Part shown: piece by piece, positions 1-32,000 of the stretch
How positions within the stretch are numbered: the stretch's first letter is position 1
Layout: each line of letters starts with the position of its first letter
Assembly (NCBI GenBank): GCA_004563595.2
Contig: CP042461.1
Span: 570,001-602,000 of the forward strand
Reading direction: 5' to 3'
Source: Candidatus Saccharimonadota bacterium
Lineage (GTDB): Bacteria > Patescibacteriota > Gracilibacteria > BD1-5 > UBA6164
DNA length: 32,000 nt
Position numbers and translations under genes: made by a program
The notes under the pieces: generated by a model
Seen by the model: only the letters and a program-made list of their open reading frames with translations
What the model was told of the DNA's origin: nothing
Database searches by the model: none

Positions 1-102
1 TCATTTATATTCTTTGTCTCGGTTGTAATTTTTAGTCAAAGCAATATTGAAAAACCCTGAAATATTAGTATCATTGCAACATCAAAAAAGATTAGAGGTT
101 AA
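1..102 (+). CDS. possible 3' end of an upstream CDS (hydrophobic tail ...FIFFVSVVIF...), frame uncertain
   Basis: Frame 1 is open from the window edge to TAA at 100-102, with one in-frame TGA at 58-60. Frames 2 and 3 stop at 26-28 and 33-35. A terminator hairpin overlaps or follows. About 100 nt is too little to fix the frame. Confidence 0.25.
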
Positions 103-120
103 TCTAATCTTTTATTTTTT
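89..120 (+). terminator. rho-independent terminator
   Basis: Stem agattaga (89-96) / tctaatct (103-110), 6-nt loop, then tttatttttt. Confidence 0.7.
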
Positions 121-258
121 TGAGTAGGGGTATTGATCTATTGCAGTATCATTATTTAAGTATTATTAATTCTACTTATTTTAGTTATTTCATATGATCA
201 GTCGGAATAATTACAATTATTATAAATTAGCTTCAAAATATTATTAACAACCCTTTTT

Positions 259-1506
259 ATGAAAAAAAACATACTTTTAACACTGATAATATTATCTATA
301 TTTATATTTACTACTCATGCTTATAATCTAAACAATAAAGACCAATTATTCATCAACAATATCACTCTGAAAATAGAAAAAATAATTTCTAAAAAATGAG
401 AAAAATATAGAAATCTATTTATTAATAAATTAACAAAATATTCTATAAAGTATAGGGATACAAAACCAAGATATTCAGAGATATTTATATGAGTTGCTGA
501 AAATATAACAATAGAAGCAATTCCTAAAAAATGTTATCTATGAATGGAAGTACCATCTGATTTAATGAGATTTTCAAAAGATTCTCCATGGAGACAAAAA
601 ATATTAAGCACTCAGACGCTTGATAGTAATTCGGATGCTATGATAGCAAACTTAAAAAAGATCCTTACCATTGATCTTAAAAAATCAAAAGCAGTATTAA
701 ATCCAAGCATTCAAAAATGGTCGTCACCAGTTCATATAATAGATAGTGATAACTGCGAACTATTTGACGTACAAAATGAAAACTGAAGTTACCATGACTC
801 TATTGATCCTGATAGGGATTGAATTATTAAGAACATACCAATACCAAAAGAAATTTGGGCAGAACCAGAAGTAGACTGACATACAATTTTGATCGATTTG
901 AATAAAAGAAAAGTTCGGGAATTTTCAAGGTTTCAACAGTTATCAAACTGAAAATATCAAGCGAGTACAGCTGCGATATGGGATCTAGATTCAAAATGAA
1001 TATGAAAAGCGTTTGATTGAAAAACTTGGTATAGGCAGTGAGTAAATGGAGCAGGAACGTCTTACTTTGGATGAATGATTACGTTTGAAGAAATGAAAGC
1101 CTGAAAAATTGAGCATGTACTTGCGGTGAGTACTCCAGCAAATAGGAAAAAAATGAGTAAATGATGAGCTTATAATTCTGAACTTTGTGCTGATGTAGCA
1201 ACAAGAACAGATGGATGGGGAATAGGACCAGAATTCATTTTAGAAGGTCAAAAAATTCAATTAAATCCAGATTTAGATCTTGATAAAATAGGCCTTTCTG
1301 AGAATGCAAAAATTATAGCAAGAGCATTGCAAGAGTATTGAGCATATGTAATGGATAATGCAAGATGATTTAATCTTATTATGCAAAACATGGATAGTGA
1401 TTGATCTGGAAAAACTTGGATAAAAGATTTTTCAGATGTAAATTTATTTGATATCCCCCTTGATGAATTTAGAGTGTTGAGTTGTGATAATGTAATGAGG
1501 AAATAA
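259..1506 (+). CDS. secreted hypothetical protein, 415 aa (code 25)
   Basis: ATG at 259, TAA at 1504-1506. About 19 in-frame TGA and no TAA/TAG. N-terminal signal peptide MKKNILLTLIILSIFIFTTHA. The track ORF 544-786 is an in-frame fragment. TGG is also used (SPW, EIW, DGWGIG), so TGA is not Trp. No family recognised. Confidence 0.8.
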
Positions 1507-1566
1507 CAAAATCAAACATAGCTATATTCATGTTTTGAATCTTTGCTCATTTGTAAAATGCTAATA

Positions 1567-1605
1567 AAAGAGAGGAATTAATCCCTCTCTTTTATGTTAT
1601 TTTTT
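1567..1605 (+). terminator. rho-independent terminator
   Basis: aaagagagga / tccctctcttt stem (one bulge) followed by a T-rich tract. Confidence 0.7.
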
Positions 1606-1666
1606 GACTTAAGTCTTTTTTCCATATATACTACATGAAAATATAATATACGTAATATCTGAAATA

Positions 1667-2074
1667 ATGGATAAAAAATTAAACATAAAAATCTACTGAG
1701 TAACAACTGTTTGACCGAAATGACAAGTAATTATTCCTCGTGATTGTAGGCCAGAATTTGGAATAAATATTTGAGATGACCGTCCTATTATAACAATTGA
1801 TAATATTGCTTTTGGTTTACCTAATCCAGATAATTGAGATGAAATATGCGAGGATGGTGAACTTGATGAGAAATCGATTGATTGTTTTTGATCTGTTAAA
1901 ATATGAACAAAACACCAATTTGTAATCCCAAGTGAGATCAGGAGTGCTCTTTGAATAAAGAGTTGAGATTCGTTAGTTGTTATATGAAAAGAGTGAGAAT
2001 GAATTTGATTCGTAAGAAATGATAATATAGATTATTTTTTTGCAATTATTAAAAAGAAATTAAGTTCAGTTTAA
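1667..2074 (+). CDS. AbrB/MazE/SpoVT-family DNA-binding protein with two tandem SpoVT-AbrB-like repeats, 135 aa
   Basis: ATG at 1667, TAA at 2072-2074, about 15 in-frame TGA. Repeat 1 is VGPKGQVIIPRDCRPEFGINIGDD. Repeat 2 is HQFVIPSEIRSALGIKSGDSLVVIG, matching the G-Q-v-x-IP-x-x-iR-x-x-lgi-x-x-GD signature of the swapped-hairpin fold. Confidence 0.75.
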
Positions 2075-2094
2075 TCCATTACTTTAGCTTTAAT

Positions 2095-2127
2095 AAAGAT
2101 GACAAGATACCTCATCTTTATTTTTTT
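2095..2127 (+). terminator. rho-independent terminator
   Basis: aaagatga (2095-2102) / tcatcttt (2112-2119), then a ttttttt run. Confidence 0.7.
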
Positions 2128-2148
2128 GTCTAAAAAAAAGGAATATAT

Positions 2149-2177
2149 TTGACAAAGAGGGTATGAAAAAGTATACT
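2149..2177 (+). promoter_or_regulatory. sigma70-type promoter for the MFP-RND operon
   Basis: TTGACA (2149-2154), 17-nt spacer, TATACT (2172-2177), about 40 nt upstream of the ATG at 2218. Confidence 0.5.
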
Positions 2178-2217
2178 AAGTTGTATACAAAATCATACTT
2201 TTTTAAATAATCTAAAT

Positions 2218-4053
2218 ATGAAAAATTTCTTAGCTCCTTTGTTTTTACTTGTATTTATTACAAGTTGTAGTGTAGAAGGACAGAATATTGAAGTAAGTGA
2301 AAGTACTCCTGAGATAGAAAGGGAACAATTTGTTGTTTGATGAAAAAAGAATAATTTTTCAAACATATATGGGAACATCTTGAATAATAATTCAAAAGAG
2401 TTAGTGGCTCATACAAATGGTCAAATAGATTATCTTGCATGTCAGGTTTGAGCTGAAGTTGATTCAGAAACACTAATAGCAAAAATTAGTCCTGATGTTG
2501 CTGATACTTTTTATAAAAATAATGTCATTCAACTCAACTCTTTAAGAGAACAGATTTTAAATCAAAATAATATTCGTAGATCTACTTTATTAAACTTTGA
2601 TAGTCAAATTAAACAACTCGCTTTTCAAGAGAATGATCTGAATACTCAATTAATAAATTTAGATAATAATCTAGGAATTCTAAAGAATCAAAAAGATCTT
2701 ACGGGTAATGATATATGATTACAATTAGAATCAATTATAGAACAAATAAGTAACTTAGAAGAATCAAAAGCACTTTTAGAGCAAAATAAAAAAGAAACCC
2801 TCAAGGATATAGTGGTAAACATAGAGAATTTAAAACAACAAATCTATAATACAGGAAATAAAAGTTTAGAAAAACTTGATGAAATATTTTGAGTTTCAAG
2901 CGAAAATAAAGATGAAAATGATGAATTTGAAGATTTTCTATGAGCAAAAAATTCAGCCTTAAAAGCAGAAACTGAAAGACAAATAACATATTTCCTGAGC
3001 AAAGGAGGTGCAAGTTTGGAGAATCTTTCTGATGAAGACCTTTCAAATGAAATAAAGAAACTCTCAGACCTTCTGAAAGATGCTGCTGAGGTAATGAGTA
3101 ACTCTATTGAAAGTGAATGAACATTTTCTAAAACTACCATTGATAGTTTATATAATGAGTTTTTATGATATTCTGATGCTGTTTTATGATACAAAACAAA
3201 CTTTGATAAATTAAGAAATGCTATTGGTACTACTTGATTAAAATTTGATTCAGATTTAAAAGTTCTTGAATGAAGTTTAACAACCTTGAATAACCAAAAA
3301 ACAAATATAGAAAATAACGGGAGTCAAAATTCTGATTTAACATTTGATACGAATATCAATAACTTAGAAAATCAGATCGATTCTTTAAAAATATCTTTAA
3401 AAAATACATCTGAACAAATAACCAACACAAAAGAAAGTAAAATAAGTAACATTAATCAAATAGATATTCAAATTAGCCAAATACAAGACTCTATTTCAAG
3501 AACTTCAGTACTATTACAATGAGAAAAAATATACGCAACTTTTCCATGAATAGTAAAAGAAAAAAAAGTAAAAGAGGGGAATGTAGTAAGTACAGGGACA
3601 CCTATATGTGTGATTGTACCTGAGTATAATTCACTGAAATTAGAAGTCTATTCTCCAAATGTGTTACAACTTGGGAGTCAGTTTAAGTATTATAAAGAAT
3701 GAGAATTTTTATGAACTGGGTCAATTATGACTGAATCTCCAGTAAAAAATATTCAAACACAAAATTATACATATGAATGAAGTATTAATTATTCTCAATT
3801 AAAAGAAGGAGATTATTTGGATATAGTCGTTACAAATAAAGAAAGTTGAAATGATTCTTTATGAGAATCAAAAAAAGACCTTGAAATCTGGTTACCTATT
3901 ACGTATGTGAAACCAAGACTTGAATGATACTTTGTTTCTGTTATTGATTCTGATGGAAGTATTTCTGAAAGGAGTATTGATATATGAAGAATGAATTATG
4001 GTGAAGTTCAAGTAATATCTTGATTGGAGTTAGGAGATACTATATCTAAATAA
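2218..4053 (+). CDS. efflux membrane-fusion (periplasmic adaptor, HlyD/RND-MFP family) lipoprotein with a very long helical insert, 611 aa
   Basis: Lipobox LVFITSC. Lipoyl half-motifs GQIDYLACQVGAEV (about aa 68-81) and IYATFPGIVKEKKVKEGNVVSTGTPICVIV (about aa 438-467) are separated by about 335 Asn/Leu/Glu/Lys/Ser-rich residues. TAA at 4051-4053. The track ORF 3286-3522 is in frame. The RND gene starts 21 nt downstream. Confidence 0.85.
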
Positions 4054-4074: not shown

Positions 4075-7000
4075 ATGATAATAAAATTTATACAATCAAA
4101 AACGGTTTTCATTTGGAGTCTCATTGCGCTTGGTTTCATTGTATGATTCAATGCCTTGAACTCTATACCCAAAGAAGAAAACCCATCGATTAGTCTTCCT
4201 AAGTTTGTTATTAATACTTTTTATTTTTGAGGTGATCCAAAAACAATAGAAAAAGAAATTACAGAGAAATTAGAAGATGAATTTAAATCTATTACTTGAA
4301 TTAAAAAGATAAGTTCTGTATCGGGTTTTAATGTCTCAACTGTAATAGTAGATTTTTATGATAATAAAGGAAGAATTGAGGCAAAAAGTGACTTAAAGGA
4401 CAAAATTGATAAAGTATCCGGATGATTCCCAATATGAACTCAGACTTCTGTAGTAACTCATATAAATCCAGATGATACTCCTGTCTATTCTTTTGCAGTT
4501 ACTGGTGACCTCTTTGCTAGGGACCTCTATGATAGATCTAAAGGTTTAGAAGATAATTTTAAATGAATAAAGGGGGTATCAGATGTAATTGTGATATGAG
4601 AACCAGACAAAAAAATCAATGTTTTTGTTGATTATAACAAAATGAATAGGTTTTGAATATCACTGGATAGTGTTGTTGGTATTTTAAAATGAACCTTTGT
4701 AAGTGCACCATCTGATAAAAAATCAATTGATGGAAGTCTGTATTCTTATGAGATCGTCAGTTATGAAAAAAATATCCCTGATATCGTAGAAAGGCTCTAT
4801 AATAAAGATATTGTAAATCTAAACTCTCAAAGTATTAAATTGAGAGATATAGCAAATATTACATATGAAGAAATAAGTTTACGTCAAAAAGCATTTTTTG
4901 ACCAGAATAACAATAATACAAATGCAATCAGCTTCAATATAAAAGTTTCTCCAGGAACAGATGTTGAATCTGTAATTAAACAGGTATTAGAGTATACCGA
5001 TGATTTTGCTGCTAAGAATAGTGATCTACAAGTAGTAGAGACTTTTTCTAAATTATTGTCTATAGATGATATGTTTGATACATTCCTTTCGAACTTTTGG
5101 CAAACAGGAGTGTTGATCCTTATTATTCTTATTATTTTTATTGGATCAAGATTAGCTTTGGGAGTAGGTATTGCTTTCCCACTTGCATATTTCTTCACTT
5201 TTATTTATTTATCATTTGTTTGATATACATTTAATACCATAGTATCTTTTTCTCTGGTGTTGAGTCTGTGAATCATGGTAGATAATCTGATTGTTGTCAG
5301 TGAATGAATCTCAAAAGAATTAAAGAAATGAATCTGATTTTGGACTGCGTATCAAAACACACTCGATACTTACCTATGGTCAATTGTTGCTTGAACTCTG
5401 ACAACGATTGCTATATTTCTTCCTATTAATTTTATGGTTGAGTGAATGGTATGACAATTTATAGCACCTTTGAGTATTACCATTACCGGTACTCTTATCG
5501 CATCGTTATTTGTATCTCTGCTATTACTTCCTGTAATACTTTCTAAAATATTGTGAAAGGGGAATGTAGGTAAGGAAACTAAATGATCTCAAGCATTGAG
5601 TCGTTCAGCAGTTTATATTTCAAAACTTACAGAAAAAGTTCTTCAAACAAAAAAGAAGATGCTTTTAGTTATTGTATCTTTTTGGGCACTTCTATTTTTT
5701 GCATTTTCTTTGGTTTGAAGTGGAGTTATTAAAAATGATTTCCTACCAGCTACTGATGAAGAAAATGCTTGGGTAAATATTAAGTATTCAGCAGGAACTT
5801 CACTTCCAAAAAATCAAGAGTATACAAATATTGTTATTGACTCAGTGAAACAATATTTAGATGAGAACTTCCCAGAACATGTAAGATTTATTGAGATAAA
5901 TATATGAAACCTCTATTCTACAGATGCTGCAACTTCTGCTTCTAATCCAACTGCAGATAATCAAGCATACTTGAATCTCAGATTTGTAGATGAGGATCAG
6001 AGAGAGAACCTTTCATTTGAAGTAGTTGAATCTTTACAGAAGTATCTCAATGCAAATATTAAATCAAAATATGATTTTATAAGTGATATCTATACTGTTT
6101 CATGAGTAGGGTTAGCATGATGAAAACCGGTTTGATTTTATATTATTTGAAAAGATTTAGAACAAATAACTGCTTACATAAAAAAAATTCGTCCGGAAGT
6201 AGAAAATATAACTTGAGTTTTTAATGTCACAACAAATTTAGAATATACAAATGGTACTATCAGGTATTTAATAGATACCAACAAAGCTCAACGTAATAAT
6301 TTGGATCCAAGCTCAGTAGTTCAATTACTTTCATCATTGAAAAATTCAGATTACTTACCAAATGGATTAGCTATAACAAACTTTAGTGATGTTGCTGATG
6401 AACAAGTGAATCTGAACTTATTCACAAATTATCAAGGAAATGTAGAAGATTTAAAGATTTGAGAAAATTTTGTATCAAAGATAACAGAAAAAAAGGAGAT
6501 TTTACCTCAACTAAAAAATATAGCTCATCTAGATGGGAACCTACAAGTTATTATTGAATCAGATAAAGAAGCAGCTACACCTCTTTGAGGTATTACGCAA
6601 GCGATAGATCAGATTATTAAGACACATGGATTGCCTGAATGATTAAGCTTTCGTTATAATGATAATATTAGTGATCAAAACGAATCTATGTGAGGTTTAT
6701 GAGCTGCATTTTGAACTGGATTCCTGTTAATGTTACTTATCTTGATATTCCAATTTAATAGTTTTAAGTATGCGATTATCGTAATGACCTCCACTTTTCT
6801 ATCTATTATTTGAGCTATTTTTACTCTGGGGCTCTTAGGTTTACCACTGAGTTTTCCTGCTCAATTATGACTCTTTGGTGTTATTTGAGTATGAGTAAAT
6901 AATGCGATTCTTTTTATAGATACCTATATCTCAGAAATGAGAAAAAATACGAATCTGAGCTCTCAAGATTTGAAAACTTTACTTGTTGAGACGGTTCAGC

Positions 7001-7185
7001 ATAGATTTTCACCTATATTTTTAACAAGTCTTACGACTATTGCTTGATTGGTAACTCTTGCATTAAAGGATGCGTTATGGTGAAGTTTAGCTATTGCTTT
7101 TATTGGTTGATTATTACTAAACATATTTATGGTTATAGTATACCTTCCTTCAATTTTGTACCTTACAGAAAAGAAAAATAAGTAA
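4075..7185 (+). CDS. RND-superfamily efflux transporter (AcrB/HAE-like), 1036 aa
   Basis: ATG at 4075, TAA at 7183-7185, dozens of in-frame TGA and no TAA/TAG. AcrB-like motifs SLVLSLGIMVDNLIVVSEGI and FGVIGVGVNNAILFIDT. Twelve-TM-like layout with two large loops. The track ORF 4840-5223 is in frame. Confidence 0.9.
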
Positions 7186-7446: not shown

Positions 7447-7848
7447 TTATTTAAATGGATTGTGTCATTTTTTAATAAAATTTTCAATAGGAACAAATAA
7501 TGGTTTCGGGAAATTATCCCGTTCAAACCAGTTCCATGCTTCAAATTTTTCAGGCTCCATTATCCTTACCTCTCAATAATCATATTTTGCAGACATCATA
7601 ATAGTAACATAATGTTTATTCTCAAGGTCAAAGATGTCATTCGTTGCAGTGCAGAAAGAAATATTTTTGATATGAATTCATGTTTCTTCCATTGTTTCTC
7701 TTGTAGCACAATCCTCCCATGATTCTTTAAACTCCAAATGTCATCCAGGGAAGCTCCATGAGCCATCTCAATGAGAATTTTTTCTTTTTCAAAGGAGTAC
7801 TTTGTTATCCTTGATAATCATTACTCATACTCATACTTTTGTTACCAT
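7447..7848 (-). CDS. Nudix hydrolase, 133 aa
   Basis: Minus-strand ATG (cat at 7846-7848), TAA (tta at 7447-7449). Complete Nudix box [24 protein letters not shown]. Eight in-frame TGA, including the second G of GGHLE. Confidence 0.9.
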
Positions 7849-14614: not shown

Positions 14615-14660
14615 TTAAAAGAATTAAAAAAATGTAAGAGATAGTTTTAGTTTCAAACTA

Positions 14661-14699
14661 AAAAGGAACTGTAAGTGTATACTTACAGTTCCTTTTTTT
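14661..14699. terminator. bidirectional rho-independent terminator
   Basis: 16-bp stem aaaaggaactgtaagt / acttacagttcctttt between convergent genes. Confidence 0.8.
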
Positions 14700-14708
14700 C
14701 CAACTTTT

Positions 14709-15114: not shown

Positions 15115-15138
15115 AAATACTATTAATAGGGAAACATA

Positions 15139-15651: not shown

Positions 15652-15652
15652 A

Positions 15653-18241: not shown

Positions 18242-18314
18242 TATGTATATATATCACAATATAATAAAAGTTTTAAAATCACCTCTATGAATAATAGGGG
18301 TCTTTTTTGGTGGA

Positions 18315-20596: not shown

Positions 20597-20637
20597 AAAA
20601 AGAGAATATTATTAGATTAATATTCTCTTTTTATTTT
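20597..20637. terminator. bidirectional rho-independent terminator
   Basis: aaaaagagaatatt (20597-20610) / aatattctcttttt (20619-20632). The stop codon of the convergent kinase gene (20636-20638) abuts it. Confidence 0.8.
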
Positions 20638-22345: not shown

Positions 22346-24226
22346 ATGAGAAATCTTTTTAATATTTTTAACGCTGAGGCTTTGAAAAAAAATCTGAAAA
22401 CGATTATGTATCGTTTTCCTGTTTCAATTTGTCTTATTTTACTTGTGAGTTGATTATTTTTCTTAAATTTACATGTGTATTTTAGTGAAAGTGTTAATGA
22501 TCATTTAATGAAGGTGATTATGACATCTATTATAACTTTTTTCTTGAGTGTTTGAGTTTATATTAGTACGGAGAATACTTCTTTTTCTCAATTTAAGCAA
22601 CATATATACCAGTTATTCCCGGTATGATTCTGAATACTGTTATATGTTGTATTGAGTGTGAATCTTGGTGATTTTGAAAATATATTATTTATTATTCTGA
22701 GCTTCTTTGGTATTCTCTTTTATATATTCTTTGCTCCATATTTAAATAACATTATAAAAAATAATATTAAACAATCAGTTTTTTATACCTATTTTTATAA
22801 TATAAGTGTATTATTCTTAATTTCATTTATTCTGGGAGGAGTACTATTTGGATTATGAAGTATTTGAATATGAACAGTATTTGCTCTTTTTGATTTGTGA
22901 GATATTATTTGATATAATATCTATCAAGATTGGGCTATATTAGCACTTTCTGTATTTACCCCATTATTTGCGCTTACACAAGTTCCAAATAAAAAAAGTA
23001 CACAAGAGAATCACTTTAATGAAAATGCATTTTTCTCTTTTTTAGTGAAGTATATTGCGATTCCTTTTATATATGTATATTTTATTATTCTTTATGCATA
23101 CACGATTAAGGTATTAGCAAATTTTTGAGATTGGCCAAAATGAGAGGTAAGTTGGATGGTTATAGGGTTTTCTATTTTTGGATATATTATCTATATCTTT
23201 TCTTATATTTTTGAAGATAAGAATAAATTTATAAAGGTATTTAGAAAAGCTTTTCCTTTTGTGGTAATTCCTCAGATCTTTATGTTATTCTATGCTATCT
23301 ACTTGAGAATTTCTCAGTACGATATTACGGTTAATAGGTATTTAGTAGTTGTATTTGGTATATGGTTACTTCTCATATCGTTATATTATGTCTTTTCTAG
23401 AAAAAAGTATTTATCTACTATCCCATTTTTATTAACTGTATTTACTCTTGTTATTTCAATTTGACCATGGTCTGTTCATTCTTTACCAGAGTCTAGACAG
23501 TCACAAAGGCTAGAATTATTTCTTATAGAAGCAAATATACTACAAAATGGTAAGATTATACCGTTAACAAACTATGATGATATTTCAAAAGAACTTTCAA
23601 AAGAAATTTATTGATGAATTAATTACTTATGCGATTTTGATAATTGTAATTTTATAAAAGAGCTTTTCCCTATCATATATAAAGAAATTGATGAGCAATA
23701 TAAAAAATATAATGATAGACCAGAAATCTATATAGGATCAAGGGAACCAGAACTGAATAGATGGGAAATTGTAAGTGAAATAACAAAGAAAATTAAAGTA
23801 AAAAATTATCACAGTGATAATAGGTTTCAGAGTAAAACAATTTGATTATCTATAAATTGAAGTGAAACACTTTTTCCAATAAATATTTGAGAATATTCAA
23901 AAATATTAGAATTATCAAATAACTCTTATGGAAAAAATTCACATCATTACTCAAAAATAAACTTCAAAAATAAGACTATAGAGATAATAGAGAACTGACT
24001 TACTATTGAATCATTTTCAATATCACAAATATTAGAGAACCTCTATAGTAAATATAAAAGTCTATGAACCACTGATCTATCTAAAGAGGACCTTATATTT
24101 GAAGTAATCTCAAATAATAAAACTTATAAAGTATTATTTAGTCAAATCAGTATAGATAATCCTGATTTCGATTGAACAGAGGAATTCCCATATTATTATG
24201 CCAGAGGTTATATTTTAATAAAATAA
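22346..24226 (+). CDS. large polytopic membrane protein with a soluble C-terminal domain (DUF4153-like by recollection), 626 aa
   Basis: ATG at 22346, TAA at 24224-24226. The track ORFs 22652-22858 and 23156-23464 are in-frame fragments. About 10 hydrophobic segments are followed by ISIGPWSVHSLPESRQSQRLELFL and a hydrophilic tail of about 250 aa. The family assignment is from memory and unverified. Confidence 0.8.
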
Positions 24227-24228
24227 AA

Positions 24229-24266
24229 AATAAGAAGAGTATTTTTTAATACTCTTCTTATTTTTT
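24229..24266. terminator. bidirectional rho-independent terminator
   Basis: 15-bp stem aataagaagagtatt / aatactcttcttatt. The stop codon of the convergent cyclase gene (24258-24260) lies inside the right arm. Confidence 0.8.
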
Positions 24267-25436
24267 GTTTGTAAAAATATTTTTTACTTTAATAATTGTT
24301 TTATTTTTTTGAGATGAATACTTTTTTATAGTTTCAATAAACGTTTTTTTATATTTTTTTCAAATATTAATAATCTTATTTTTATCTCTTTTTGCAATCT
24401 CTTTTCATGACTTTACTGAATAACTAAATAATGTTTTTAATTCTTTATTTGTTGCTTTTACTCACTGACTCTTTTTATAAAAATAATAACTGAGTACTTT
24501 TCAAATTGAATATGTTAATCAAAAATTTAACGGAATCATTAGATATCATCAAAAACCTACAAAACCTAGTTTTGTTATTCATACTATGGTTTGGGAAAAA
24601 ACATAACTCCCTCATACGCTAGAGAGTATGGTTGTGAATATTTCTTTAGATTCATCTTTATTCAGCTCTATTCAATAACTATGAGAAATTTCTTGTAAGA
24701 GGTATAAATGAAAAGGAAGTACACTATATGTATCTAAAAATGGTATTGGTTGTACACCTAAAATTGCAGCTACAGATGAGAATTTAAAAATAGTGTCATC
24801 GATCTTTTTTATTTTTGTCTTGAAGTCCTCACTAATAAAATAATCATTAATATTTACATGCTGTATTTTTCATTCTTTTATATTTTTTACTTCCTGAAGG
24901 TTGTGTACTATTTCATATATATCAACTTCATAGAGTACTCATTTAAATGACGTTTTTCATAAATATAGATGTACATAATCATTTTTCTTTTGTATTGCAT
25001 TCCATAACCCTCATGAAATAAAAATTTTATTTTCAGGAGTTTTATTTTGTAATCTAGATGCAACATTTACAGAATCTCAAAAATAATCTTCTCAATTTAT
25101 TGTAACTTCCCTTTCTAATGATCAGTAATCAGCACTTATTCTCAGTTCTATTTTATATAAATTTAATTCTATTTGGGAGTTATATTTTTCGAGCTTCTTT
25201 TGTATTTCAATTGATGTTTGCAGGGCATTTTCAGGTTTTTCGAAGACTATCATATATGAATCTCCAATAGATTTTACTATCTTTCAAAAGTATTTCTTTA
25301 TTATTGGGAAAATAATCTCATCTTGTTTACTCAAAAGCGTATTTATTTGAACTTGAGTCATCAGAGATGTTTTTAATGTGAAATCTTTTATATCTGTAAA
25401 TAAAACAGCTCAATTAATAGAATCTATATGTTTCAT
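24258..25436 (-). CDS. class III adenylate/guanylate cyclase catalytic domain fused to a DUF697/YcjF-like membrane-associated domain, 392 aa
   Basis: Cyclase motifs AVLFTDIKDFT, KSIGDSYMIVF, LRISADYGSL, DYFGDSVNVASRL. The C-terminal half (LGVQPIPFLDTYSVLPFHLYLLQEISHSYGIEL..., then Gly-rich hydrophobic segments) resembles DUF697, by recollection. Confidence 0.85.
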
Positions 25437-25533: not shown

Positions 25534-26934
25534 TTATTTTATTGCTTTTTTAGCGTTTCTCGCTGCATTTCTTACATTTTCAGGGAGAGCAGGGTGGATA
25601 TATATAATATTGAGTATATCATCTAGTTTTGCTCACATAGTTATAAATACAATAAGTATATGAATCATATTTGATGCTTCAACTCAGATTATATGTGCTC
25701 AGAGTAACTTGAGTGAAGTTTTATCAAAGAGTAGCTTTACTATTCAATGATCACTTTTTAGTGCATCTCACATGGCTGAATCTTGATACTTATTTATTCA
25801 CTTAATATAGCTTACTCATTCATTTATTAATTCATCTTCTGTTTTTCATACTCAAGCTACTTGAGGGTTTGAAAAAATAGCCCATGGCATAGGTGGATAT
25901 GAAATCTGATTTTTTGGTTTCAAGTTGTTATCTTCTATGAGTTCTTTATAAAGGTATTCAGCTTCAAAGTTTACTGAATGTCTGAATAAATAGTTTCATA
26001 TACAGTCTCATAGAGCATATATATGAGGGAGAGATGTTTGAAGTGTATCATCAACTTCAATAAATCCTCTTTTGTTCGTTGTAATATCTGTATTCTCTAG
26101 ATTGAGTGTATCACTATTGGGTTGTACACCAGTTGCTATTAAAAGAGCATCTCATTGGATTGCCTTTTCTTCATTATTTTGAGTGTAATAGAGAGTGAAT
26201 TCTTTCCTTGTCTTATCGTATTCAACTTTGTGGGTTCAAACTCACTCTAGTACATTATATTTTTCTTTAAAAACCCTTCCGAATTCCTCTTTAATTTCAG
26301 AATCTACGTTTCAAATCAGTCATCATCTTACAATAAATGTTACATTACTTCCAAGAGCTCCGTACGCATGACCAAGTTCAACTGCAATGTATCAACCTCA
26401 AATAACCAGGAGCTTTTTTGGGAGTTGTTTATTTCTGAGAGCTTCTGTTGAAGTCATATATGGAGTAGCTTCTAATCATTCAATTGGTGGAATAGTTGGT
26501 CTTGCTCCTACCGCTATGATAATTTTTTTTCCTGATATAACTTGGCTATTCACTTCGATCCTATTGTTATCTAAAAACCTTGCCTGTCCATGAAAATAAT
26601 CTAGAGTTTCATTTTTTGATGAATTATAGAGATCGTTTATTTTATTTGAAGTTGAATCAGTTGATGTATTGATTTCAGTTACTAATTTACCAAAATCAAC
26701 TGTCGGTGCATTTACAGAGATATGATATTTTTTTGCCTCACGTATTTCTTGCATAACATCAGCTGGATGTATTAGCATTTTTGAAGGAATACATCCTCTG
26801 TTGAGGCAAGTTCATCAAAGCTTATCTTTTTCAATAATGGCAACATTGAGTCATCTTTCTGCTGCGGGACGTGCAATTTTTCCAGCTCATCACGATCAAA
26901 TTACAATGAGGTCATATATTTTTTCTGTTTCCAT
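25534..26934 (-). CDS. class I FAD-dependent pyridine nucleotide-disulfide oxidoreductase (Lpd/glutathione/mycothione reductase family), 466 aa
   Basis: FAD fold DLIVIGSGGAGK, redox-active disulfide GGTCLNRGCIPSK, NAD fold LLVIGGGYIAVELG, ALGDC, and dimerisation motif IHPALPE. The track ORF 26476-26778 is an in-frame fragment. Confidence 0.92.
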
Positions 26935-27117: not shown

Positions 27118-27453
27118 TTATGCGACAAGTGCACATACTGTTGGTTTTTGTGTAGCCTTTACAATCTTTTTAACAGATCGTTCTAGCGTATCTTGTTGAT
27201 CGAAAAACAATTGAGTTTCAATTCTCAGACACTCAACACAGTATACAGATTGAGATATAATATTTTCTTCAGCATACCTTCTTGATAGCTGAAGAATTTT
27301 TCTTCTCATGGTTAATGTTATTCTCTCATGTGCATTATTTGTATCACATTTTTGAGAACACTTTTCACATGTATCAAGTTGATCAGTAAAATGATCAACA
27401 TACTTCTGGTTAAGATAATCAACAATTTTCCGCATAACGCTTCTAATTTTCAT
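27118..27453 (-). CDS. Cys-rich, glycine-free hypothetical protein, 111 aa (SD-led, TGA-free class); possible zinc-binding
   Basis: Intact standard ORF with a TAA stop. SD GGAG lies 8 nt before the ATG. CEKCSQKC and CVEC give CxxC...CxxC. Confidence 0.7.
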   Translation of the reverse strand: MKIRSVMRKIVDYLNQKYVDHFTDQLDTCEKCSQKCDTNNAHERITLTMRRKILQLSRRYAEENIISQSVYCVECLRIETQLFFDQQDTLERSVKKIVKATQKPTVCALVA

Positions 27454-27777: not shown

Positions 27778-28038
27778 TTATGCTTCTTCTTTTTCTTGAG
27801 CAAAATCAACTTTGATATCTCTTCCATCTAATTCAGCTCCGTCCATAGCTTCTTTTGCAGCTACAGCTTCTTCTACTGAAGAAAATTCAATGAAACCAAA
27901 CCCTCTTGATTTTCCAGTTTCTCTATCTGTGATAATTTTAACGTAAGATACTTCTCCAAATTCTTTGAAAGCGTCTTTTATATCTTGCCATTCTAAATTC
28001 CAAGATATACCTCCTATAAATAACTTGTTCGTTTCCAT
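27778..28038 (-). CDS. RRM-type (RNP-1/RNP-2) RNA-binding protein, 86 aa
   Basis: RNP-2 LFIGGI and RNP-1 RGFGFIEF. TAA stop. All 8 Gly are GGN, with no TGA. No SD. Confidence 0.92.
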   Translation of the reverse strand: METNKLFIGGISWNLEWQDIKDAFKEFGEVSYVKIITDRETGKSRGFGFIEFSSVEEAVAAKEAMDGAELDGRDIKVDFAQEKEEA

Positions 28039-28238: not shown

Positions 28239-28769
28239 TTATTTATTAAATTTAATTTTGTACGCTTTATGACACTCGTGGAGTCTTTTTATTGCTTCTG
28301 CTTTATTATCCCAACCGTTTAATTCTACTTTTTTTCCATGGAGATCTTTATAATGAAGCATGTAATATTCTATATCTTCTAACTCTTTTGCATTTACATT
28401 TTCTATATCATTTATATCAGAATAATATTTATCATCTGCAACAGCAAGTACTTTGTAATCATCTTCCCCTGAATCTATCATTTTGAGTCCACCTACAACT
28501 CTACAGGGTACAATTACTCATACTGCAAGAGGTTGACTACATAAAATAATTACATCAAGAGGATCATTATCACCCTCATTCCATGTTTGTGGAAGGTCTC
28601 AGTAGTTAAATGTATAGTCAATTGGAGTTTTCCCAACTCTATCTACCCACATGGCACCTGTTTTATGATCAAATTCATACTTTACTTTGCTCCCCTTTGG
28701 AATTTCTAGTACAGCATTGATTTCACTTAATTCTTCATTCCCAAGTGGAATATCGTGATATAAATTCAT
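28239..28769 (-). CDS. ppa: family I inorganic pyrophosphatase, 176 aa
   Basis: MNLYHDIPLG..., FNY-G-DLPQTW, and the signature GDNDPLDVI. The track ORF 28239-28481 is the C-terminal fragment. Only 2 of 12 Gly are TGA. Confidence 0.92.
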
Positions 28770-28833: not shown

Positions 28834-30555
28834 TTATCTTCGTCTTTTTTTTCATTTTCCAAATCTTGTCTGGAGTCTTTTTACTTCTTTTTCTCAGAGC
28901 TTTTCTTCAAGTACTAGATTCATTTGTGCTTCTTCATCAAATATATTTACATCCATATCTATGTTATGATCTTGTTTGTACTTATAGTCTTCATAATTTC
29001 AGTAGCTGATAGAAAGTTCTCAGTCACTTATAAACCATATATTTGTAGAGAGTTTATTTACGAAATATCTATCATGTGAGATAAATAGAAGGGTTCATTT
29101 AAAATCCCTAAGGGATTCTTCGAGAGATTCTCTCGTATCATAATCAAGGTGATTTGTGGGTTCATCGAGTATCAATAAACTACAATCTTTTTGTCATAAA
29201 ATAGCAAAGAGTAATTTTGATGTTTGTCCTCACGAGAGATCACTTACTTTTTTATCTATATCTGCTCTATCAAATAAATAATGAGTAAGTATAGCTATGA
29301 GATGTTGTTCAGGGTAATGGAGTCAGTGTATTTCAAAATTTTCTTTTATTGTTTTATTCTTATCAAGTTCTTCATGCATTTGTGAGTAGTAACTAATTTT
29401 TACTCATTTTCATTTACTATAAAATCAATCGAGAATAGGAAGTTCTCAAACAATAGATTTTAAAAATGTAGATTTTCAAGCTCAGTTTTCTCATACAATT
29501 CATATCCTTTGTCAGGCATAAAGTATTGATTCTTGAATATAGAATAGAGGCTCTTTTCTCCCAATAAAACATTCTTTAAATGAAAGTATTTTTTCGGGGT
29601 GTTCTCATGTAAAATCAAAGAAAAATTTTGGCTTTTTAGGAATATATGGTTGTTCCATTTTTTCCATTTTTTCGAGAGCCTTTCCTCGAGATTTTGCCCA
29701 TCAGGCTCTTGATCATGCCCTAAACCTATTAATAAGCTTTTCCTCTTTATCTATGAATTCCTGTTCTCTTTTATAATTATCCACTTTTTTCTTCTCAGTT
29801 GCACTTCTTTGTTGCACATAATCTGAGTAATTACAATGATAAAAAGTGAGAGGTCTATTTGGTTGGACTTCATATGTTTTACTACATGTTTTATCTAAAA
29901 ATTCTCTGTCATGAGAAATGATTACATATCATCATTTCCATTTGTTTTGAAGAAATGATTCGAGCCACTCAACACTTTTCATATCTATGAAGTTGGTTGG
30001 TTCATCTAAGAAAAGTATGTCTGGAGATTCTAATAGTACTTTTGCAAGTGCTACTTTGGTTCTTTGTCATCAACTGATTTCGAGCAATTTTTTATCAAGG
30101 AGCTTGAGTATTCACATACCGTTTGCAACACCATGAATTTTATTATTATAATCATTTCATCCAATATTATTAAACTGTTCAAGTAGGGAAGTATAACTAT
30201 CTATAAGCTCCATATTTGTAGGATCTTTTGTCATTTGAGATTCAATCGCAATAATTTTATCTTCAAGATCTTGAATGCTATCAAACCCACTGGCTAATTC
30301 CTCTCTGACAGTTTTTTCTTCATTATCTGAATAGACTTGATGGAGGTACCCGATACTTATATTTCAAATATTGTCTATATGCCCATCATAGCTTTTCATT
30401 TCTCATGTAAGAACCTTTAAAAGAGTTGTTTTTCATGCTCCATTTGGCCCTACCAGACAAATTCTATCGTTTGAATTAATAGTTATATCGATATTCTTTA
30501 GTATTTCTACTCAGCTTATTTCTAGTTTATCAATTTTTACTTTGAGATGTTTCAC
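28834..30555 (-). CDS. ABC-F family ATPase (two ABC domains plus linker), 573 aa
   Basis: Walker A GPNGAGKTT and GENGAGKST. Signatures ISGGQR and LSGGQT (the Gly are TGA). Walker B ILFLDEPTN and LLILDEPTN. Basic C-terminal tail. The start is assigned to GTG (cac at 30553-30555) from the usual distance to Walker A. The frame stays open further upstream, so the start is uncertain. Confidence 0.88.
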
Positions 30556-30712
30556 GATTTTAAATTTATAAATACTTTTACTAAGAGATATCTTACTGAC
30601 AACTCTAAAAAAATGAAAATAAAACTTGTAAAATAGATAAAAATCTTTAAAATTATCCGGCACAATCTTAAGTATCTTGTCATATATTTCCTATTAATTT
30701 CGGAGTGATGTT

Positions 30713-30841
30713 ATGAAAGACACAGTTGAGCTTACAAAAAATACAAATCAAAATGGATCTTCAACAGCTAGAATACTTTTGAAAAAAAATATTTCGAAAG
30801 TTAAAGCTGCTAGAAGGCGAATAGGAATACGTAGACGATAA
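30713..30841 (+). CDS. small very basic protein, 42 aa (MKDTVELTKNTNQNGSSTARILLKKNISKVKAARRRIGIRRR)
   Basis: SD GGAG lies 8 nt before the ATG. TAA at 30839-30841, followed by a GC-rich terminator. No TGA. An overlapping alternative ORF starts at ATG 30708 in another frame, with two TGA. Confidence 0.35.
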   Translation: MKDTVELTKNTNQNGSSTARILLKKNISKVKAARRRIGIRRR

Positions 30842-30856
30842 AAATCCTTGTCTATG

Positions 30857-30892
30857 AAAAAAAGGCGCGTTTTATAATACGCGCCTTTTTCT
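30857..30892. terminator. bidirectional rho-independent terminator (unusually GC-rich stem)
   Basis: aaaggcgcgt (30861-30870) / acgcgccttt (30879-30888). Confidence 0.8.
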
Positions 30893-30903
30893 TGCCTAAA
30901 TTT

Positions 30904-31233
30904 TTAACTGATAGAGTAAATATTACTCATAAATGCGATTATGTATAATCAGAGAATCATATAGAGATGCGTAGTAACAAAGTGAATAATTCATACTATT
31001 ATATTGATGAAAATTTGAAATAGGAGAGCTAGATTACTCAGTGATAATACAGCGCTACTATATTCTATATTAAGTCCCATTAGATTATAAGTAAACAATA
31101 AAAATATAGCACTGTATGCAATATAGCTTATAACAGAGAATATTTTTTTCTTTGAGTTTTTTCTTTGCAGAATACTTTGCAGAATATTATAGTTTACTTC
31201 AGGAGTAGTATAACTCTTAATTATTGTTTTCAT
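30904..31233 (-). CDS. membrane protein translationally coupled to the ECF sigma factor (putative anti-sigma partner), 109 aa
   Basis: The ATG (cat at 31231-31233) lies 17 nt inside the sigma gene's 3' end. The track ORF 30991-31233 stops at TGA. The code-25 reading continues GIIHFVTTHLYMILGLYIIAFMSNIYSIS to TAA at 30904-30906. Three hydrophobic segments. Confidence 0.7.
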
Positions 31234-31756
31234 ATTGTTCTAAGTTAGGTTTTAGTTTTTTCTTTGCTCTGGAGAGTCTTGTTTTTATGGAATTTTCATT
31301 TATATTCATTATTTTTGATATTTCCTTGATTTTCAGCTCATCGTAGTAGTAGTATAGAAGAATATTTCTATCAATTAGAGGTAGTTTATTTATTTCATTT
31401 GTTATGTCTTGAGTTTTCTTTTTAGTATCAAGTCAATGATAATACTCAGTATCATCTGGAATAAAATTTTCAACTTCAGATATCTCTATATATCATCTCT
31501 TCTTTTTTATATATGTTATGCTCTCATTATAAGATATGCGATATGCCCAGGTCTTAAATTCACTTTTAAATTGAAATTTTGGGAGATTTTTAATGATTTT
31601 GAGGCATACGTTTTGAGTAATATCATGAGCATCACTCTCATCTAAACAGACTCGAAAACATGCTCAAAATATATTTTGAAGATTATTTCTCAGTAATTCT
31701 TCAAGAGCACCCTCGTCTCCTTCTAAATACTTTTTAATTAATTTTTGATCCGACAT
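31217..31756 (-). CDS. ECF (sigma-70 group 4) RNA polymerase sigma factor, 179 aa
   Basis: Region 2: DAHDITQNVCLKIIKNLPKFQFKSEFKTWAYRISYNESITYIKK. Region 4: LPLIDRNILLYYYYDELKIKEISKIMNINENSIKTRLSRAKKKL. Three TGA. Confidence 0.88.
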
Positions 31757-31784
31757 AATTATTATTTTTTTATTACTTTATATA

Positions 31785-31813
31785 TTAGATACAAAAAGTG
31801 AAAAATAGTTTCA
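31785..31813 (-). promoter_or_regulatory. ECF-type promoter candidate for the sigma operon (TGAAAC-N18-TCTAA)
   Basis: On the minus strand: TGAAAC (31813-31808), 18 nt, TCTAA (31789-31785), about 30 nt upstream of the sigma ATG. Confidence 0.45.
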
Positions 31814-31835
31814 TTTTTTTGAAAAAAACTTTTTT

Positions 31836-31864
31836 TGAAACCTTTATGAAGTAAAGTGGTCTAA
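31836..31864 (+). promoter_or_regulatory. ECF-type promoter candidate for the divergent secreted-protein gene (TGAAAC-N18-TCTAA)
   Basis: On the plus strand: TGAAAC (31836-31841), 18 nt, TCTAA (31860-31864), about 30 nt upstream of the ATG at 31894. Confidence 0.45.
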
Positions 31865-31893
31865 TCAGTACAATAAATCTTAACCATATAATT

Positions 31894-32000
31894 ATGAAAA
31901 CAAACTTTAATATAAAATACTTTTTAATTTTTACCGTATTAATTTCTTCACTTTTTACGTATTGAAATGTATCAGCATTTGAAATAATGAAATGAGAGGA
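31894..32000 (+). CDS. 5' end of a secreted or membrane protein (partial at window edge)
   Basis: ATG at 31894. MKTNFNIKYFLIFTVLISSLFTYGNVSAFEIMKGE... looks like a signal peptide. Two in-frame TGA. Runs off the window. Confidence 0.55.

What the first reader, a model, noticed from the sequence alone, without database searches (positions are those of the whole stretch)
1..32000. The whole window uses a UGA=Gly genetic code (table 25), so the supplied standard-code ORF track is fragmented and partly antisense
Long genes are interrupted every 10-30 codons by TGA but never by TAA or TAG, and domain motifs stay in frame across the TGAs. TGA falls on invariant glycines:
- receiver domain DINLP[TGA]MN[TGA] and GLDA[TGA]ADDY (10132-10794)
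- kinase G1/G2 boxes DS[TGA]I[TGA]ID and GFGI[TGA]LS (10798-12051)
- Rossmann folds VI[TGA]S[TGA][TGA]AGK and VI[TGA]G[TGA]Y (25534-26934)
- ABC signature IS[TGA][TGA]Q (28834-30555)
- Nudix box PG[TGA]HLE (7447-7848)
- NSS motif AA[TGA]L[TGA]NLWKFPY (15653-17155)
- PPase NY[TGA]D (28239-28769)

Conserved Trp positions use TGG (NLWKFPY, WYHPH), so this is not the Mycoplasma-type UGA=Trp code. In the regulator at 10132 I count 12 TGA against 3 GGN glycines. UGA=Gly is established only for Absconditabacteria (SR1) and Gracilibacteria (BD1-5), which places this fragment in those CPR lineages. The 500-aa NSS transporter and the 1036-aa RND pump are invisible or shredded in the given track.
Basis: partly seen in the sequence, partly recalled or inferred. 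Interest (0 to 1): 0.85.

Follow-up and report, generated by a model that had tools for sequence, protein, structure and literature searches.

The report
Known Gracilibacteria UGA-glycine code fragment

Summary

- **ORFs.** Under table 11 the window has only 10 ORFs of 100 aa or more. Reading through TGA gives 29 genes covering 85% of it, all ending in TAA or TAG.
- **TGA means glycine.** TGA makes up 376 of 9,071 codons. It aligns with Gly, not Trp: 59 Gly against 1 Trp over 111 PDB-aligned columns, and Gly in 116-119 of 119 NUDIX homologues at 7 of 8 sites. Pfam scores are highest with Gly (SNF: 319.7 bits, against Ser 287.3 and Trp 221.4).
- **Source.** Exact protein matches identify Candidatus Gracilibacteria bacterium 28_42_T64 (GCA_004563595.2; Sieber et al. 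2019). It was annotated with code 25, prfB was reported absent, and Codetta independently inferred UGA=Gly.
- **Not testable here.** The tRNA-Gly(UCA) could not be checked, because no such tRNA lies in the roughly 48 kb I could reach.

Side results:
- Both informative CGG codons sit on tryptophan columns (W 117/119 and W 15/22, no Arg). This suggests CGG=Trp, which Codetta left undetermined and GenBank translates as Arg.
- Five genes strongly avoid TGA.
- JGI, Logan and ENA hold Trp-mistranslated copies of these proteins.

The parts
259..1506 (+). g01, hypothetical secreted protein, 415 aa, 18 TGA / 9 GGN. It carries one CGG codon at 916-918.
   Evidence: There is no Pfam hit. 22 homologues were found. 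Gly is 22/22 at three TGA columns. The CGG column is W 15, Y 6, L 1, R 0.
1667..2074 (+). g02, AbrB/MazE-type small DNA-binding protein, 135 aa, 13 TGA / 3 GGN
   Evidence: Pfam MazE_antitoxin, 42.7 bits.
2218..4053 (+). g03, HlyD-like membrane-fusion protein, 611 aa, 21 TGA
   Evidence: Pfam HlyD_3, 29.6 bits. It lies directly upstream of the RND pump.
4075..7185 (+). g04, RND efflux pump, 1,036 aa, 40 TGA / 33 GGN
   Evidence: Pfam ACR_tran, 394.7 bits, profile positions 2-1018 of 1021. Under table 11 it is broken into fragments; the only in-frame ORF of 60 aa or more is 127 aa.
7447..7848 (-). g06, NUDIX hydrolase, 133 aa, 8 TGA / 2 GGN. It carries one CGG codon at 7519-7521.
   Evidence: Pfam NUDIX scores 77.5 bits with Gly and 59.4 with Trp. 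Across 119 homologues, Gly is 116-119 at 7 of 8 TGA sites. The CGG column is W 117, F 1, L 1, R 0. In Arabidopsis NUDX1 structures the same site is Trp.
7952..8413 (-). g07, gene with no Pfam or PHROG match (no homologue search run), 153 aa, 0 TGA / 9 GGN
   Evidence: There is no Pfam or PHROG hit. The AlphaFold2 model has pLDDT 47.
8586..9113 (-). g08, orphan gene, 175 aa, 0 TGA / 11 GGN
   Evidence: It matches only itself among 5.8 billion proteins. It is identical to GenBank QFR39128.1. Together with g07, 0 of 20 Gly codons are TGA, p=1.6e-8.
9476..10018 (+). g09, hypothetical protein, 180 aa, 11 TGA / 5 GGN
   Evidence: no family found.
10132..10794 (+). g10, OmpR-type response regulator, 220 aa, 12 TGA / 3 GGN
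   Evidence: Response_reg scores 93.1 bits with Gly against 71.1 with Trp. Trans_reg_C scores 63.4 against 49.7. The Gly translation is identical to QFR39130.1.
10798..12051 (+). g11, histidine kinase, 417 aa, 12 TGA / 12 GGN
   Evidence: HisKA and HATPase_c are listed for the called product. TGA sits in the G1 and G2 boxes.
12171..14132 (+). g12, multicopper oxidase with a C-terminal cupredoxin-like domain, 653 aa, 32 TGA / 23 GGN
   Evidence: Cu-oxidase_3 and Cu-oxidase_2. NCBIfam CueO, 120 bits, below its cut-off.
14147..14614 (+). g13, hypothetical protein, 155 aa, 9 TGA / 7 GGN
15653..17155 (-). g14, neurotransmitter:sodium symporter family transporter, 500 aa, 39 TGA / 13 GGN
   Evidence: Pfam SNF scores: Gly 319.7, Ser 287.3, Ala 286.2, Arg 276.3, Cys 267.5, X 264.0, Leu 234.4, Trp 221.4 bits.
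17366..18241 (+). g15, DsbA/thioredoxin-like protein, 291 aa (the start is uncertain; the public call is 309 aa), 12 TGA / 15 GGN
   Evidence: Thioredoxin_4.
18243..18704 (+). g16, small membrane protein, 153 aa, 9 TGA / 7 GGN
18701..19168 (-). g17, hypothetical protein, 155 aa, 1 TGA / 6 GGN
   Evidence: The weak Pfam hit is not credible.
19346..20590 (+). g18, hypothetical membrane protein, 414 aa, 18 TGA / 10 GGN
20636..21514 (-). g19, histidine kinase, 292 aa, 9 TGA / 3 GGN
   Evidence: HATPase_c 38.4 bits and HisKA 36.8 bits.
21524..22186 (-). g20, OmpR-type response regulator, 220 aa, 8 TGA / 4 GGN. It has two CGA codons (118 and 201).
   Evidence: Both CGA codons face Arg in BasR and DrrD structures.
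22346..24226 (+). g21, DUF4153 membrane protein, 626 aa (the public call is 568 aa), 20 TGA / 12 GGN
   Evidence: Pfam DUF4153, 47.7 bits.
24258..25436 (-). g22, class III nucleotidyl cyclase domain protein, 392 aa, 19 TGA / 6 GGN
   Evidence: Guanylate_cyc, 59.8 bits.
25534..26934 (-). g23, pyridine nucleotide-disulfide oxidoreductase (dihydrolipoyl dehydrogenase-like), 466 aa, 26 TGA / 13 GGN
   Evidence: Pyr_redox_2 scores 191.8 bits with Gly against 134.4 with Trp. In three PDB alignments, 15-17 of the 26 TGA columns face Gly and none faces Trp. The best NCBIfam match is dihydrolipoyl dehydrogenase, below its cut-off.
27118..27453 (-). g24, orphan gene with two CxxC pairs, 111 aa, no Gly codons. 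It has a CGG codon at 27430-27432.
   Evidence: No homologue covers codon 8 among 1.84 billion representative proteins.
27778..28038 (-). g25, RRM-type RNA-binding protein, 86 aa, 0 TGA / 8 GGN
   Evidence: RRM_1, 84.5 bits. It is identical to QFR39144.1. TGA avoidance has p=7.7e-4.
28239..28769 (-). g26, inorganic pyrophosphatase, 176 aa, 2 TGA / 10 GGN
   Evidence: Pyrophosphatase, 167.5 bits. The Gly version is identical to QFR39145.1, and a Trp version exists in JGI, Logan and ENA.
28834..30555 (-). g27, ABC-F ATPase, 573 aa from a GTG start (the public call extends to 30663, 609 aa), 30 TGA / 12 GGN
   Evidence: ABC_tran scores 158.2 bits with Gly against 105.8 with Trp. NCBIfam ribo_prot_ABC_F scores 433 bits, above its cut-off of 380.
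30904..31233 (-). g28, small membrane protein, 109 aa, 2 TGA / 1 GGN
31217..31756 (-). g29, ECF-type sigma-70 factor, 179 aa, 3 TGA / 2 GGN
   Evidence: Sigma70_r2 48.6 bits and Sigma70_r4_2 57.5 bits.

Best explanation
The window is a chromosomal segment of the published, closed genome of Candidatus Gracilibacteria bacterium 28_42_T64 (BD1-5; GCA_004563595.2). This organism translates with genetic code 25.

**Shown here**
- UGA is an ordinary glycine sense codon, and in fact the commonest one: 59% of Gly codons in the window.
- Only UAA and UAG terminate genes.

**Inferred for this genome from what is known of the lineage, not seen here**
- A dedicated tRNA with anticodon UCA and glycine acceptor identity (G1:C72, C2:G71, G3:C70, U73) reads UGA.
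- Release factor 2, which would otherwise terminate at UGA, is absent. The genome paper reports that prfB was not detected.

**Consequences**
- Any table-11 ORF track is shredded and partly antisense.
- A table-4 translation gives full-length proteins with Trp wrongly placed at every glycine UGA.
For: **ORF structure and coding density**
- Table 11 recovers 17% of gene length, against 85% coverage of the window with TGA read through.
- In-frame codon frequencies are TGA 4.15%, TAA 0 and TAG 0.

**Meaning of TGA**
- PDB-aligned columns: Gly 59/111, Trp 1/111.
- NUDIX homologues: Gly in 116-119 of 119 at 7 of 8 sites.
- g01: Gly 22/22 at three sites.
- Pfam scores are best with Gly in every gene tested, and among eight residues tried on SNF.
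- Amino-acid composition is normal only if TGA=Gly.

**Source**
- Gly translations are identical to GenBank proteins of Gracilibacteria bacterium 28_42_T64, on a 1,343,103-bp contig.
- Logan and JGI assemblies are 100% identical to the window over their overlaps.

**Literature on this genome and lineage**
- The genome paper used code 25 and did not detect prfB (PMC6851277).
- Codetta inferred UGA=Gly for this assembly (PMC8629427 source data).
- Proteomics in another BD1-5 bacterium found 97 peptides unique to the UGA-Gly database, against 3 unique to the UGA-Trp database (PMC4032931).

**Lineage-level tRNA**
- 102 of them carry a tRNA that ARAGORN calls with anticodon tca. Nearly all are Gracilibacteria or Absconditabacteria-type MAGs.
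Against: - No tRNA-Gly(UCA) lies in the window or the roughly 16 kb of reachable flanks. The only tRNA there is a tRNA-Lys(CUU).
- RF2 absence was not tested here.
- Some TGA columns in poorly conserved regions face other residues, for example 22 of 33 in the distant NSS-to-human DAT alignment. GGN glycine codons behave the same way, with 26/52 on Gly.
- Five genes almost lack TGA, so TGA use is not uniform across genes.
Confidence: 0.97

Rival explanations
1. UGA is read as tryptophan (table 4), as in Mycoplasmatales and several insect endosymbionts. This gives the same long ORFs.
For: - The ORF structure is identical under tables 4 and 25.
- The genome has low GC (27.5%), as in Mycoplasma.
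- Public JGI, Logan and ENA gene calls of this DNA are Trp translations.
Against: - Only 1 of 111 PDB-aligned TGA columns faces Trp.
- Pfam scores drop by 14-98 bits per family with Trp.
- Trp content would be 4.9% and Gly only 2.9%.
- Conserved Trp columns are encoded by TGG.
- The organism is a Gracilibacterium.
Confidence: 0.01
2. UGA is still a stop. The in-frame TGAs would then reflect pseudogenes, sequencing errors, selenocysteine or programmed read-through.
For: No direct evidence. It is simply the default reading of a table-11 track.
Against: - There are 376 in-frame TGAs in 25 of the 29 genes, and no in-frame TAA or TAG.
- Full-length domain matches run across the TGAs, for example ACR_tran positions 2-1018 of 1021.
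- Three assemblies agree base for base.
- Cys, as a proxy for selenocysteine, scores 52 bits worse than Gly on SNF.
- No gene ends in TGA.
Confidence: 0.005
3. The fragment belongs to a stop-codon-recoded phage or other mobile element rather than to a code-25 bacterium.
For: - Recoded phages exist, and phages of Gracilibacteria share code 25 (PMC10746230).
- g01 has one weak PHROG tail-protein hit, E=0.002.
Against: - The gene content is cellular: two-component systems, an RND pump, pyrophosphatase, ABC-F, a sigma factor and dihydrolipoyl dehydrogenase-like enzyme.
- The proteins match exactly a closed 1.34-Mb bacterial chromosome.
- No phage hallmark genes were found.
Confidence: 0.01

Closest known systems
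NCBI genetic code 25 (Candidate Division SR1 and Gracilibacteria code): UGA=Gly
   Same: - UGA is an abundant Gly sense codon.
- UAA and UAG are the only stops.
- The genome has low GC.
- The organism is a Gracilibacterium, and the genome was published and annotated with this code.
   Different: Nothing differs for UGA. The window hints at an additional CGG=Trp reading that table 25 does not include.
Genetic code 4 (Mycoplasma/Spiroplasma and insect endosymbionts): UGA=Trp
   Same: UGA is a sense codon, RF2 is lost and GC is low. ORF boundaries are identical.
   Different: Here UGA columns are Gly rather than Trp, and Trp is encoded by UGG.
Absconditabacterales CGA/CGG=Trp reassignment (Shulgina and Eddy 2021), with CGG=Trp predicted in some Gracilibacteria (UBA5194, UBA6489)
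   Same: - The setting matches: low GC and very rare CGN codons.
- Both informative CGG codons here lie on Trp columns.
   Different: - CGA is Arg here (Codetta says Arg).
- Codetta left CGG undetermined for this genome and lists neither tRNA(CCG) nor tRNA(UCG), so the decoder is unknown.

Membership tests
Genetic code 25 (UGA=Gly) | In-frame UGA is frequent inside conserved genes and does not terminate them. | tested here: met
   There are 376 in-frame TGAs in 9,071 codons. Domain matches run across them.
Genetic code 25 (UGA=Gly) | UGA aligns with glycine in homologues from standard-code organisms. | tested here: met
   - PDB-aligned columns: Gly 59/111.
- NUDIX homologues: Gly 116-119 of 119 at 7 of 8 sites.
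- Pfam scores are best with Gly.
Genetic code 25 (UGA=Gly) | UAA and UAG remain stops, and UGA is not used as a terminator. | tested here: met
   27 genes end in TAA, 2 in TAG and none in TGA.
Genetic code 25 (UGA=Gly) | A tRNA with anticodon UCA and glycine identity elements (G1:C72, C2:G71, G3:C70, U73). | not testable with these tools
   - There is no such tRNA in the window or flanks.
- At lineage level, 102 of 120 pattern hits in GTDB representatives are tRNA(UCA) genes, almost all in Gracilibacteria or Absconditabacteria-type MAGs.
Genetic code 25 (UGA=Gly) | Release factor 2 (prfB) is absent. | not testable with these tools
   This needs the whole genome. The genome paper reports prfB not detected and prfA present (PMC6851277).
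Genetic code 25 (UGA=Gly) | The organism belongs to Gracilibacteria or Absconditabacteria. | tested here: met
   Exact protein identity to GenBank entries of Candidatus Gracilibacteria bacterium 28_42_T64. Taxid 1862133, phylum Candidatus Altimarinota. GTDB order BD1-5.
Genetic code 4 (UGA=Trp) | UGA aligns with tryptophan. | tested here: not met
   Trp faces 1 of 111 columns. Trp translations lose 14-98 bits per Pfam family.
CGR=Trp reassignment (Absconditabacterales type) | CGA aligns with tryptophan. | tested here: not met
   - Both CGA codons of RR2 face Arg in three structures.
- A CGA codon sits on the Arg of the conserved NYRS helicase motif in the flanking UvrD gene (that this Arg is invariant is from my own knowledge).
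- Codetta says Arg.
CGR=Trp reassignment (Absconditabacterales type) | CGG aligns with tryptophan. | tested here: met
   Only two informative codons exist. NUDIX codon 110 faces W in 117/119. g01 codon 220 faces W 15, Y 6, L 1 of 22. Neither column has any Arg. The chance of this placement is 6.8e-4. The sample is small.
CGR=Trp reassignment (Absconditabacterales type) | A tRNA(CCG) or tRNA(UCG) with tryptophan identity. | not testable with these tools
   The published table lists tRNA(CCG)=0 and tRNA(UCG)=0 for this assembly. I could not examine the genome.

The most novel reading that the evidence does not exclude
Besides UGA=Gly, this Gracilibacterium reads the very rare codon CGG as tryptophan while CGA stays arginine.

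- GenBank (table 25) translates CGG as Arg, and Codetta could not infer it for this genome.
- The closed genome is reported to have neither tRNA(CCG) nor tRNA(UCG). CGG would then be decoded by an undetected or unconventional tRNA.
- The genome would be a snapshot of a sense-codon reassignment in progress.
Probability: 0.6. Interest if true: 0.5.

Novelty: already known. Interest (0 to 1): 0.2.

Why it matters
**For the scan.** It matters practically. Any feature called in this window from a table-11 ORF track is unreliable, and gene-based findings should be redone with table 25.

**For databases.** JGI, Logan and ENA protein collections hold table-4 translations of this genome, with Trp at about 4% of positions. 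This degrades homology searches and structure prediction for code-25 lineages.

**Scientifically.** The UGA=Gly code of Gracilibacteria has been established since 2013-2014 and was already applied to this genome, so nothing new is learned from it.

**The CGG lead.** This is the only part with research value. It would add a sense-to-sense reassignment to a closed genome in which the expected decoder tRNA is reported missing.

Tried and rejected
- **Exact DNA look-ups.** A 52-mer from the window found nothing in the GTDB representative genomes or the JGI metagenome collection. The full genome could therefore not be read.
- **Look-up of Gly-translated proteins.** I used TGA-free genes and a returned protein instead, which gave flanks of 9.7 kb on the left and 6 kb on the right.
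- **tRNA scans.** The window and flanks hold only a tRNA-Lys(CUU).
- **Rfam.** There is no hit at gathering thresholds. The only weak hit in the 1-kb gap at 14615-15652 is a chance miRNA match.
- **Origin of the TGA-free genes g07 and g08.**
  - There is no Pfam or PHROG family.
  - g08 has no homologue in 5.8 billion proteins.
  - Single-sequence AlphaFold2 models have pLDDT 33 and 47, too poor for a fold search.
  - GC and GC3 match the rest of the window. Foreign origin is neither shown nor excluded.
- **Third CGG codon (g24).** No homologue covers it.
- **More CGG codons.** There are none in the flanking genes.
- **CGA=Trp.** This was considered and rejected.

Full report
**Observation**

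The window has 27.5% GC. Under the standard bacterial code it holds only 10 ORFs of 100 aa or more, the longest 175 aa.

It holds 42 ORFs of 60 aa or more. Only 15 of these are in-frame pieces of real genes, and they recover 17% of gene length. 21 are antisense to real genes.

If only TAA and TAG stop translation, ORFs reach 1,042 codons. I called 29 genes that cover 85.2% of the window.

In the reading frame of these genes TGA is 4.15% of codons, about one every 24, while TAA and TAG are absent. In the other two frames TAA alone is 4.3-4.8%. All 29 genes end in TAA (27) or TAG (2), and none ends in TGA.

The counts are also right: 12 TGA against 3 GGN in the regulator at 10132, a 500-aa NSS transporter and a 1,036-aa RND pump.

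**What TGA encodes**

I masked TGA as X and aligned two genes to solved structures from standard-code organisms. Over 111 TGA columns, the residue opposite was Gly 59 times and Trp once. Ordinary GGN glycine codons in the same alignments face Gly 26 of 52 times, so TGA behaves like any glycine codon.

For the NUDIX gene, 119 homologues of 63-78% identity have Gly in 116-119 sequences at 7 of the 8 TGA sites. In the hypothetical protein g01, three TGA sites are Gly in 22 of 22 homologues.

I used Pfam bit scores as a likelihood test, and they always favour Gly over Trp:

| Pfam family | Gly (bits) | Trp (bits) |
|---|---|---|
| Response_reg | 93.1 | 71.1 |
| Pyr_redox_2 | 191.8 | 134.4 |
| SNF | 319.7 | 221.4 |
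| ABC_tran | 158.2 | 105.8 |
| NUDIX | 77.5 | 59.4 |

On the SNF transporter (39 TGAs), Gly also beats every residue reachable by one base change, plus Ala and X. The scores are Ser 287.3, Ala 286.2, Arg 276.3, Cys 267.5, X 264.0 and Leu 234.4.

Composition agrees. Gly is 7.0% of residues if TGA=Gly and 2.9% otherwise. Trp would be 4.9% if TGA=Trp, against 0.75% from TGG. Conserved Trp columns are encoded by TGG.

UGA=Gly is therefore shown for the genes of this window, and UGA=Trp is rejected.

**Where the window comes from**

Gly translations of the pyrophosphatase, the response regulator and the NUDIX protein are identical to GenBank QFR39145.1, QFR39130.1 and QFR39126.1. So are two TGA-free proteins, which match QFR39128.1 and QFR39144.1. 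All belong to Candidatus Gracilibacteria bacterium 28_42_T64, on a contig of 1,343,103 bp (taxonomy).

A Logan assembly (SRR3580189) and a JGI metagenome contig (3300030037) are 100% identical to the window over their overlaps.

This is the closed genome described by Sieber et al. 2019 (PMC6851277). They predicted genes with code 25, reported 28.87% GC and 33 tRNA genes, and did not detect prfB while prfA was present.

Shulgina and Eddy's Codetta screen lists this assembly (GCA_004563595.2, GTDB order BD1-5) with UGA=Gly. UGA=Gly in a BD1-5 bacterium was validated by proteomics, with 97 peptides unique to the UGA-Gly database against 3 unique to the UGA-Trp database (PMC4032931).

It is already known for this very genome.

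**Mechanism, and what could not be tested**

The accepted mechanism has two parts. A tRNA with anticodon UCA and glycine acceptor identity reads UGA, and release factor 2 has been lost.

Neither part can be checked in the window. No tRNA lies in it, and the only tRNA in the roughly 16 kb of flanks I could fetch is a tRNA-Lys(CUU). Exact look-ups of window DNA in the genome and metagenome collections found nothing.

As a lineage-level check, I scanned the GTDB representative genomes for a tRNA-shaped pattern with a GCG...CGC-U acceptor end and a UCA anticodon. 102 of them carry a tRNA that ARAGORN calls with anticodon tca, nearly all in MAGs labelled Gracilibacteria, Absconditabacteria or misfiled relatives. 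The 18 without such a tRNA are in unrelated phyla, roughly the number I estimated by hand for chance matches. The source genome was not among the rows returned.

**Gene content**

The window is ordinary chromosomal DNA. It encodes:
- an HlyD-like protein and an RND pump
- a NUDIX hydrolase
- two OmpR-type regulator and histidine kinase pairs
- a multicopper oxidase
- an NSS transporter
- a DsbA-like protein
- a DUF4153 membrane protein
- a nucleotidyl cyclase
- a dihydrolipoyl-dehydrogenase-like flavoprotein
- an RRM protein
- inorganic pyrophosphatase
- an ABC-F ATPase
- an ECF sigma factor
- several hypothetical proteins

There are no phage hallmarks.

**A second codon: CGG**

Shulgina and Eddy reported CGA and CGG reassigned to Trp in Absconditabacterales, and CGG=Trp in some Gracilibacteria. 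I therefore looked at these codons.

CGA occurs 11 times in the window and is arginine. Both CGA codons of the second regulator face Arg in three structures. One in the flanking UvrD gene sits on the Arg of the conserved NYRS helicase motif (that this Arg is invariant is from my own knowledge). Codetta also says Arg.

CGG occurs only three times, and there are none in the flanking genes:
- **NUDIX codon 110 (window 7519-7521).** The 119 homologues have Trp 117, Phe 1, Leu 1 and Arg 0. Arabidopsis NUDX1 structures have Trp there.
- **g01 codon 220 (window 916-918).** The 22 homologues have Trp 15, Tyr 6, Leu 1 and Arg 0.
- **g24 codon 8 (window 27430-27432).** This gene is an orphan, so the codon is uninformative.

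None of the 15 AGA or AGG codons in those two genes lies on a Trp column. Two randomly placed codons would both fall on Trp-majority columns with probability 6.8e-4. Three assemblies agree on these bases.

This points to CGG=Trp in this organism. For this assembly Codetta gave '?' for CGG, with usage of 0.48 per 10,000 in Pfam-aligned codons. It lists no tRNA(CCG) and no tRNA(UCG). GenBank translates CGG as Arg.

With two codons this is a lead, not a result, and the decoder is unknown.

**Uneven TGA use**

TGA supplies 59% of Gly codons overall, but five genes avoid it:

| Gene | TGA among Gly codons |
|---|---|
| g07 | 0 of 9 |
| g08 | 0 of 11 |
| RRM protein | 0 of 8 |
| pyrophosphatase | 2 of 12 |
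| g17 | 1 of 7 |

For g07 and g08 together, p=1.6e-8. For all five together, p=2.6e-14. Three small ORFs in the left flank are also TGA-free, 0 of 12.

The RRM protein and pyrophosphatase may be highly expressed, but I have no expression data. g08 has no detectable homologue (g07 was not searched), both have typical GC, and no usable structure model could be made.

Liu et al. 2023 describe standard-code phages of Gracilibacteria that avoid TGA. That makes import from such elements possible, but I found no evidence for it.

**Verdict**

The finding is correct and well reasoned, and it is essential for reading this window properly. It re-derives the published genetic code of a published genome, so its novelty is nil. 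Its interest is low apart from the CGG lead.

Noticed in passing
window 7519-7521 (minus strand, NUDIX codon 110) and 916-918 (plus strand, g01 codon 220); also 27430-27432 (minus strand, g24 codon 8): The only two informative CGG codons sit on tryptophan columns: W 117/119 and W 15/22, with no Arg in either. CGA sits on conserved Arg. This suggests CGG=Trp, which Codetta left undetermined for this genome and GenBank translates as Arg. The published table lists no tRNA(CCG) or tRNA(UCG).
   Followed up: partly
window 7952-8413 (-), 8586-9113 (-), 18701-19168 (-), 27778-28038 (-), 28239-28769 (-); L003 6360-7791: Five genes almost lack TGA, although TGA is 59% of Gly codons overall: 3 of 47 Gly codons, p=2.6e-14. 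g08 has no detectable homologue and g07 has no Pfam or PHROG match; the RRM protein and pyrophosphatase are housekeeping proteins. Three further small TGA-free ORFs lie in the left flank. The cause is unknown. It could be expression level, or import from TGA-avoiding standard-code elements.
   Followed up: partly
whole window (public protein copies, e.g. P0004, P0007, P0008, P0129): JGI/IMG, Logan and ENA hold table-4 translations of these genes, with Trp at every UGA. Only NCBI holds the Gly versions. One NUDIX homologue (P0066) shows the same Trp-for-Gly artefact.
   Followed up: yes
window 14615-15652: There is a gap of about 1 kb with no convincing gene under either code. It has no Rfam family at gathering score and no tRNA. 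Public gene calls place only 53-aa and 97-aa ORFs there.
   Followed up: partly
L002 1603-4997 (just right of the window end): Three tandem paralogous genes of about 355-375 aa each carry a RelA_SpoT (alarmone synthetase/hydrolase) domain. A UvrD helicase gene lies next to them.
   Followed up: no
L007, L032, L067, L081, L095 (GTDB loci from the tRNA pattern scan): A few genomes labelled as non-CPR taxa also carry an ARAGORN tRNA with anticodon UCA that matched the Gly-acceptor pattern. The labels are Anaerolineaceae, Akkermansia, Archangium, Woesearchaeota and Gemmatimonadales. These could be tRNA-Sec, suppressor tRNAs or bin contamination.
   Followed up: no
window 28834-30663, 17366-18241, 22346-24226, 7952-8413: Start codons are uncertain for four genes. 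My calls and the public table-4 calls differ by 10-58 codons: ABC-F 573 against 609 aa, DsbA-like 291 against 309, DUF4153 626 against 568, and g07 153 against 143.
   Followed up: no
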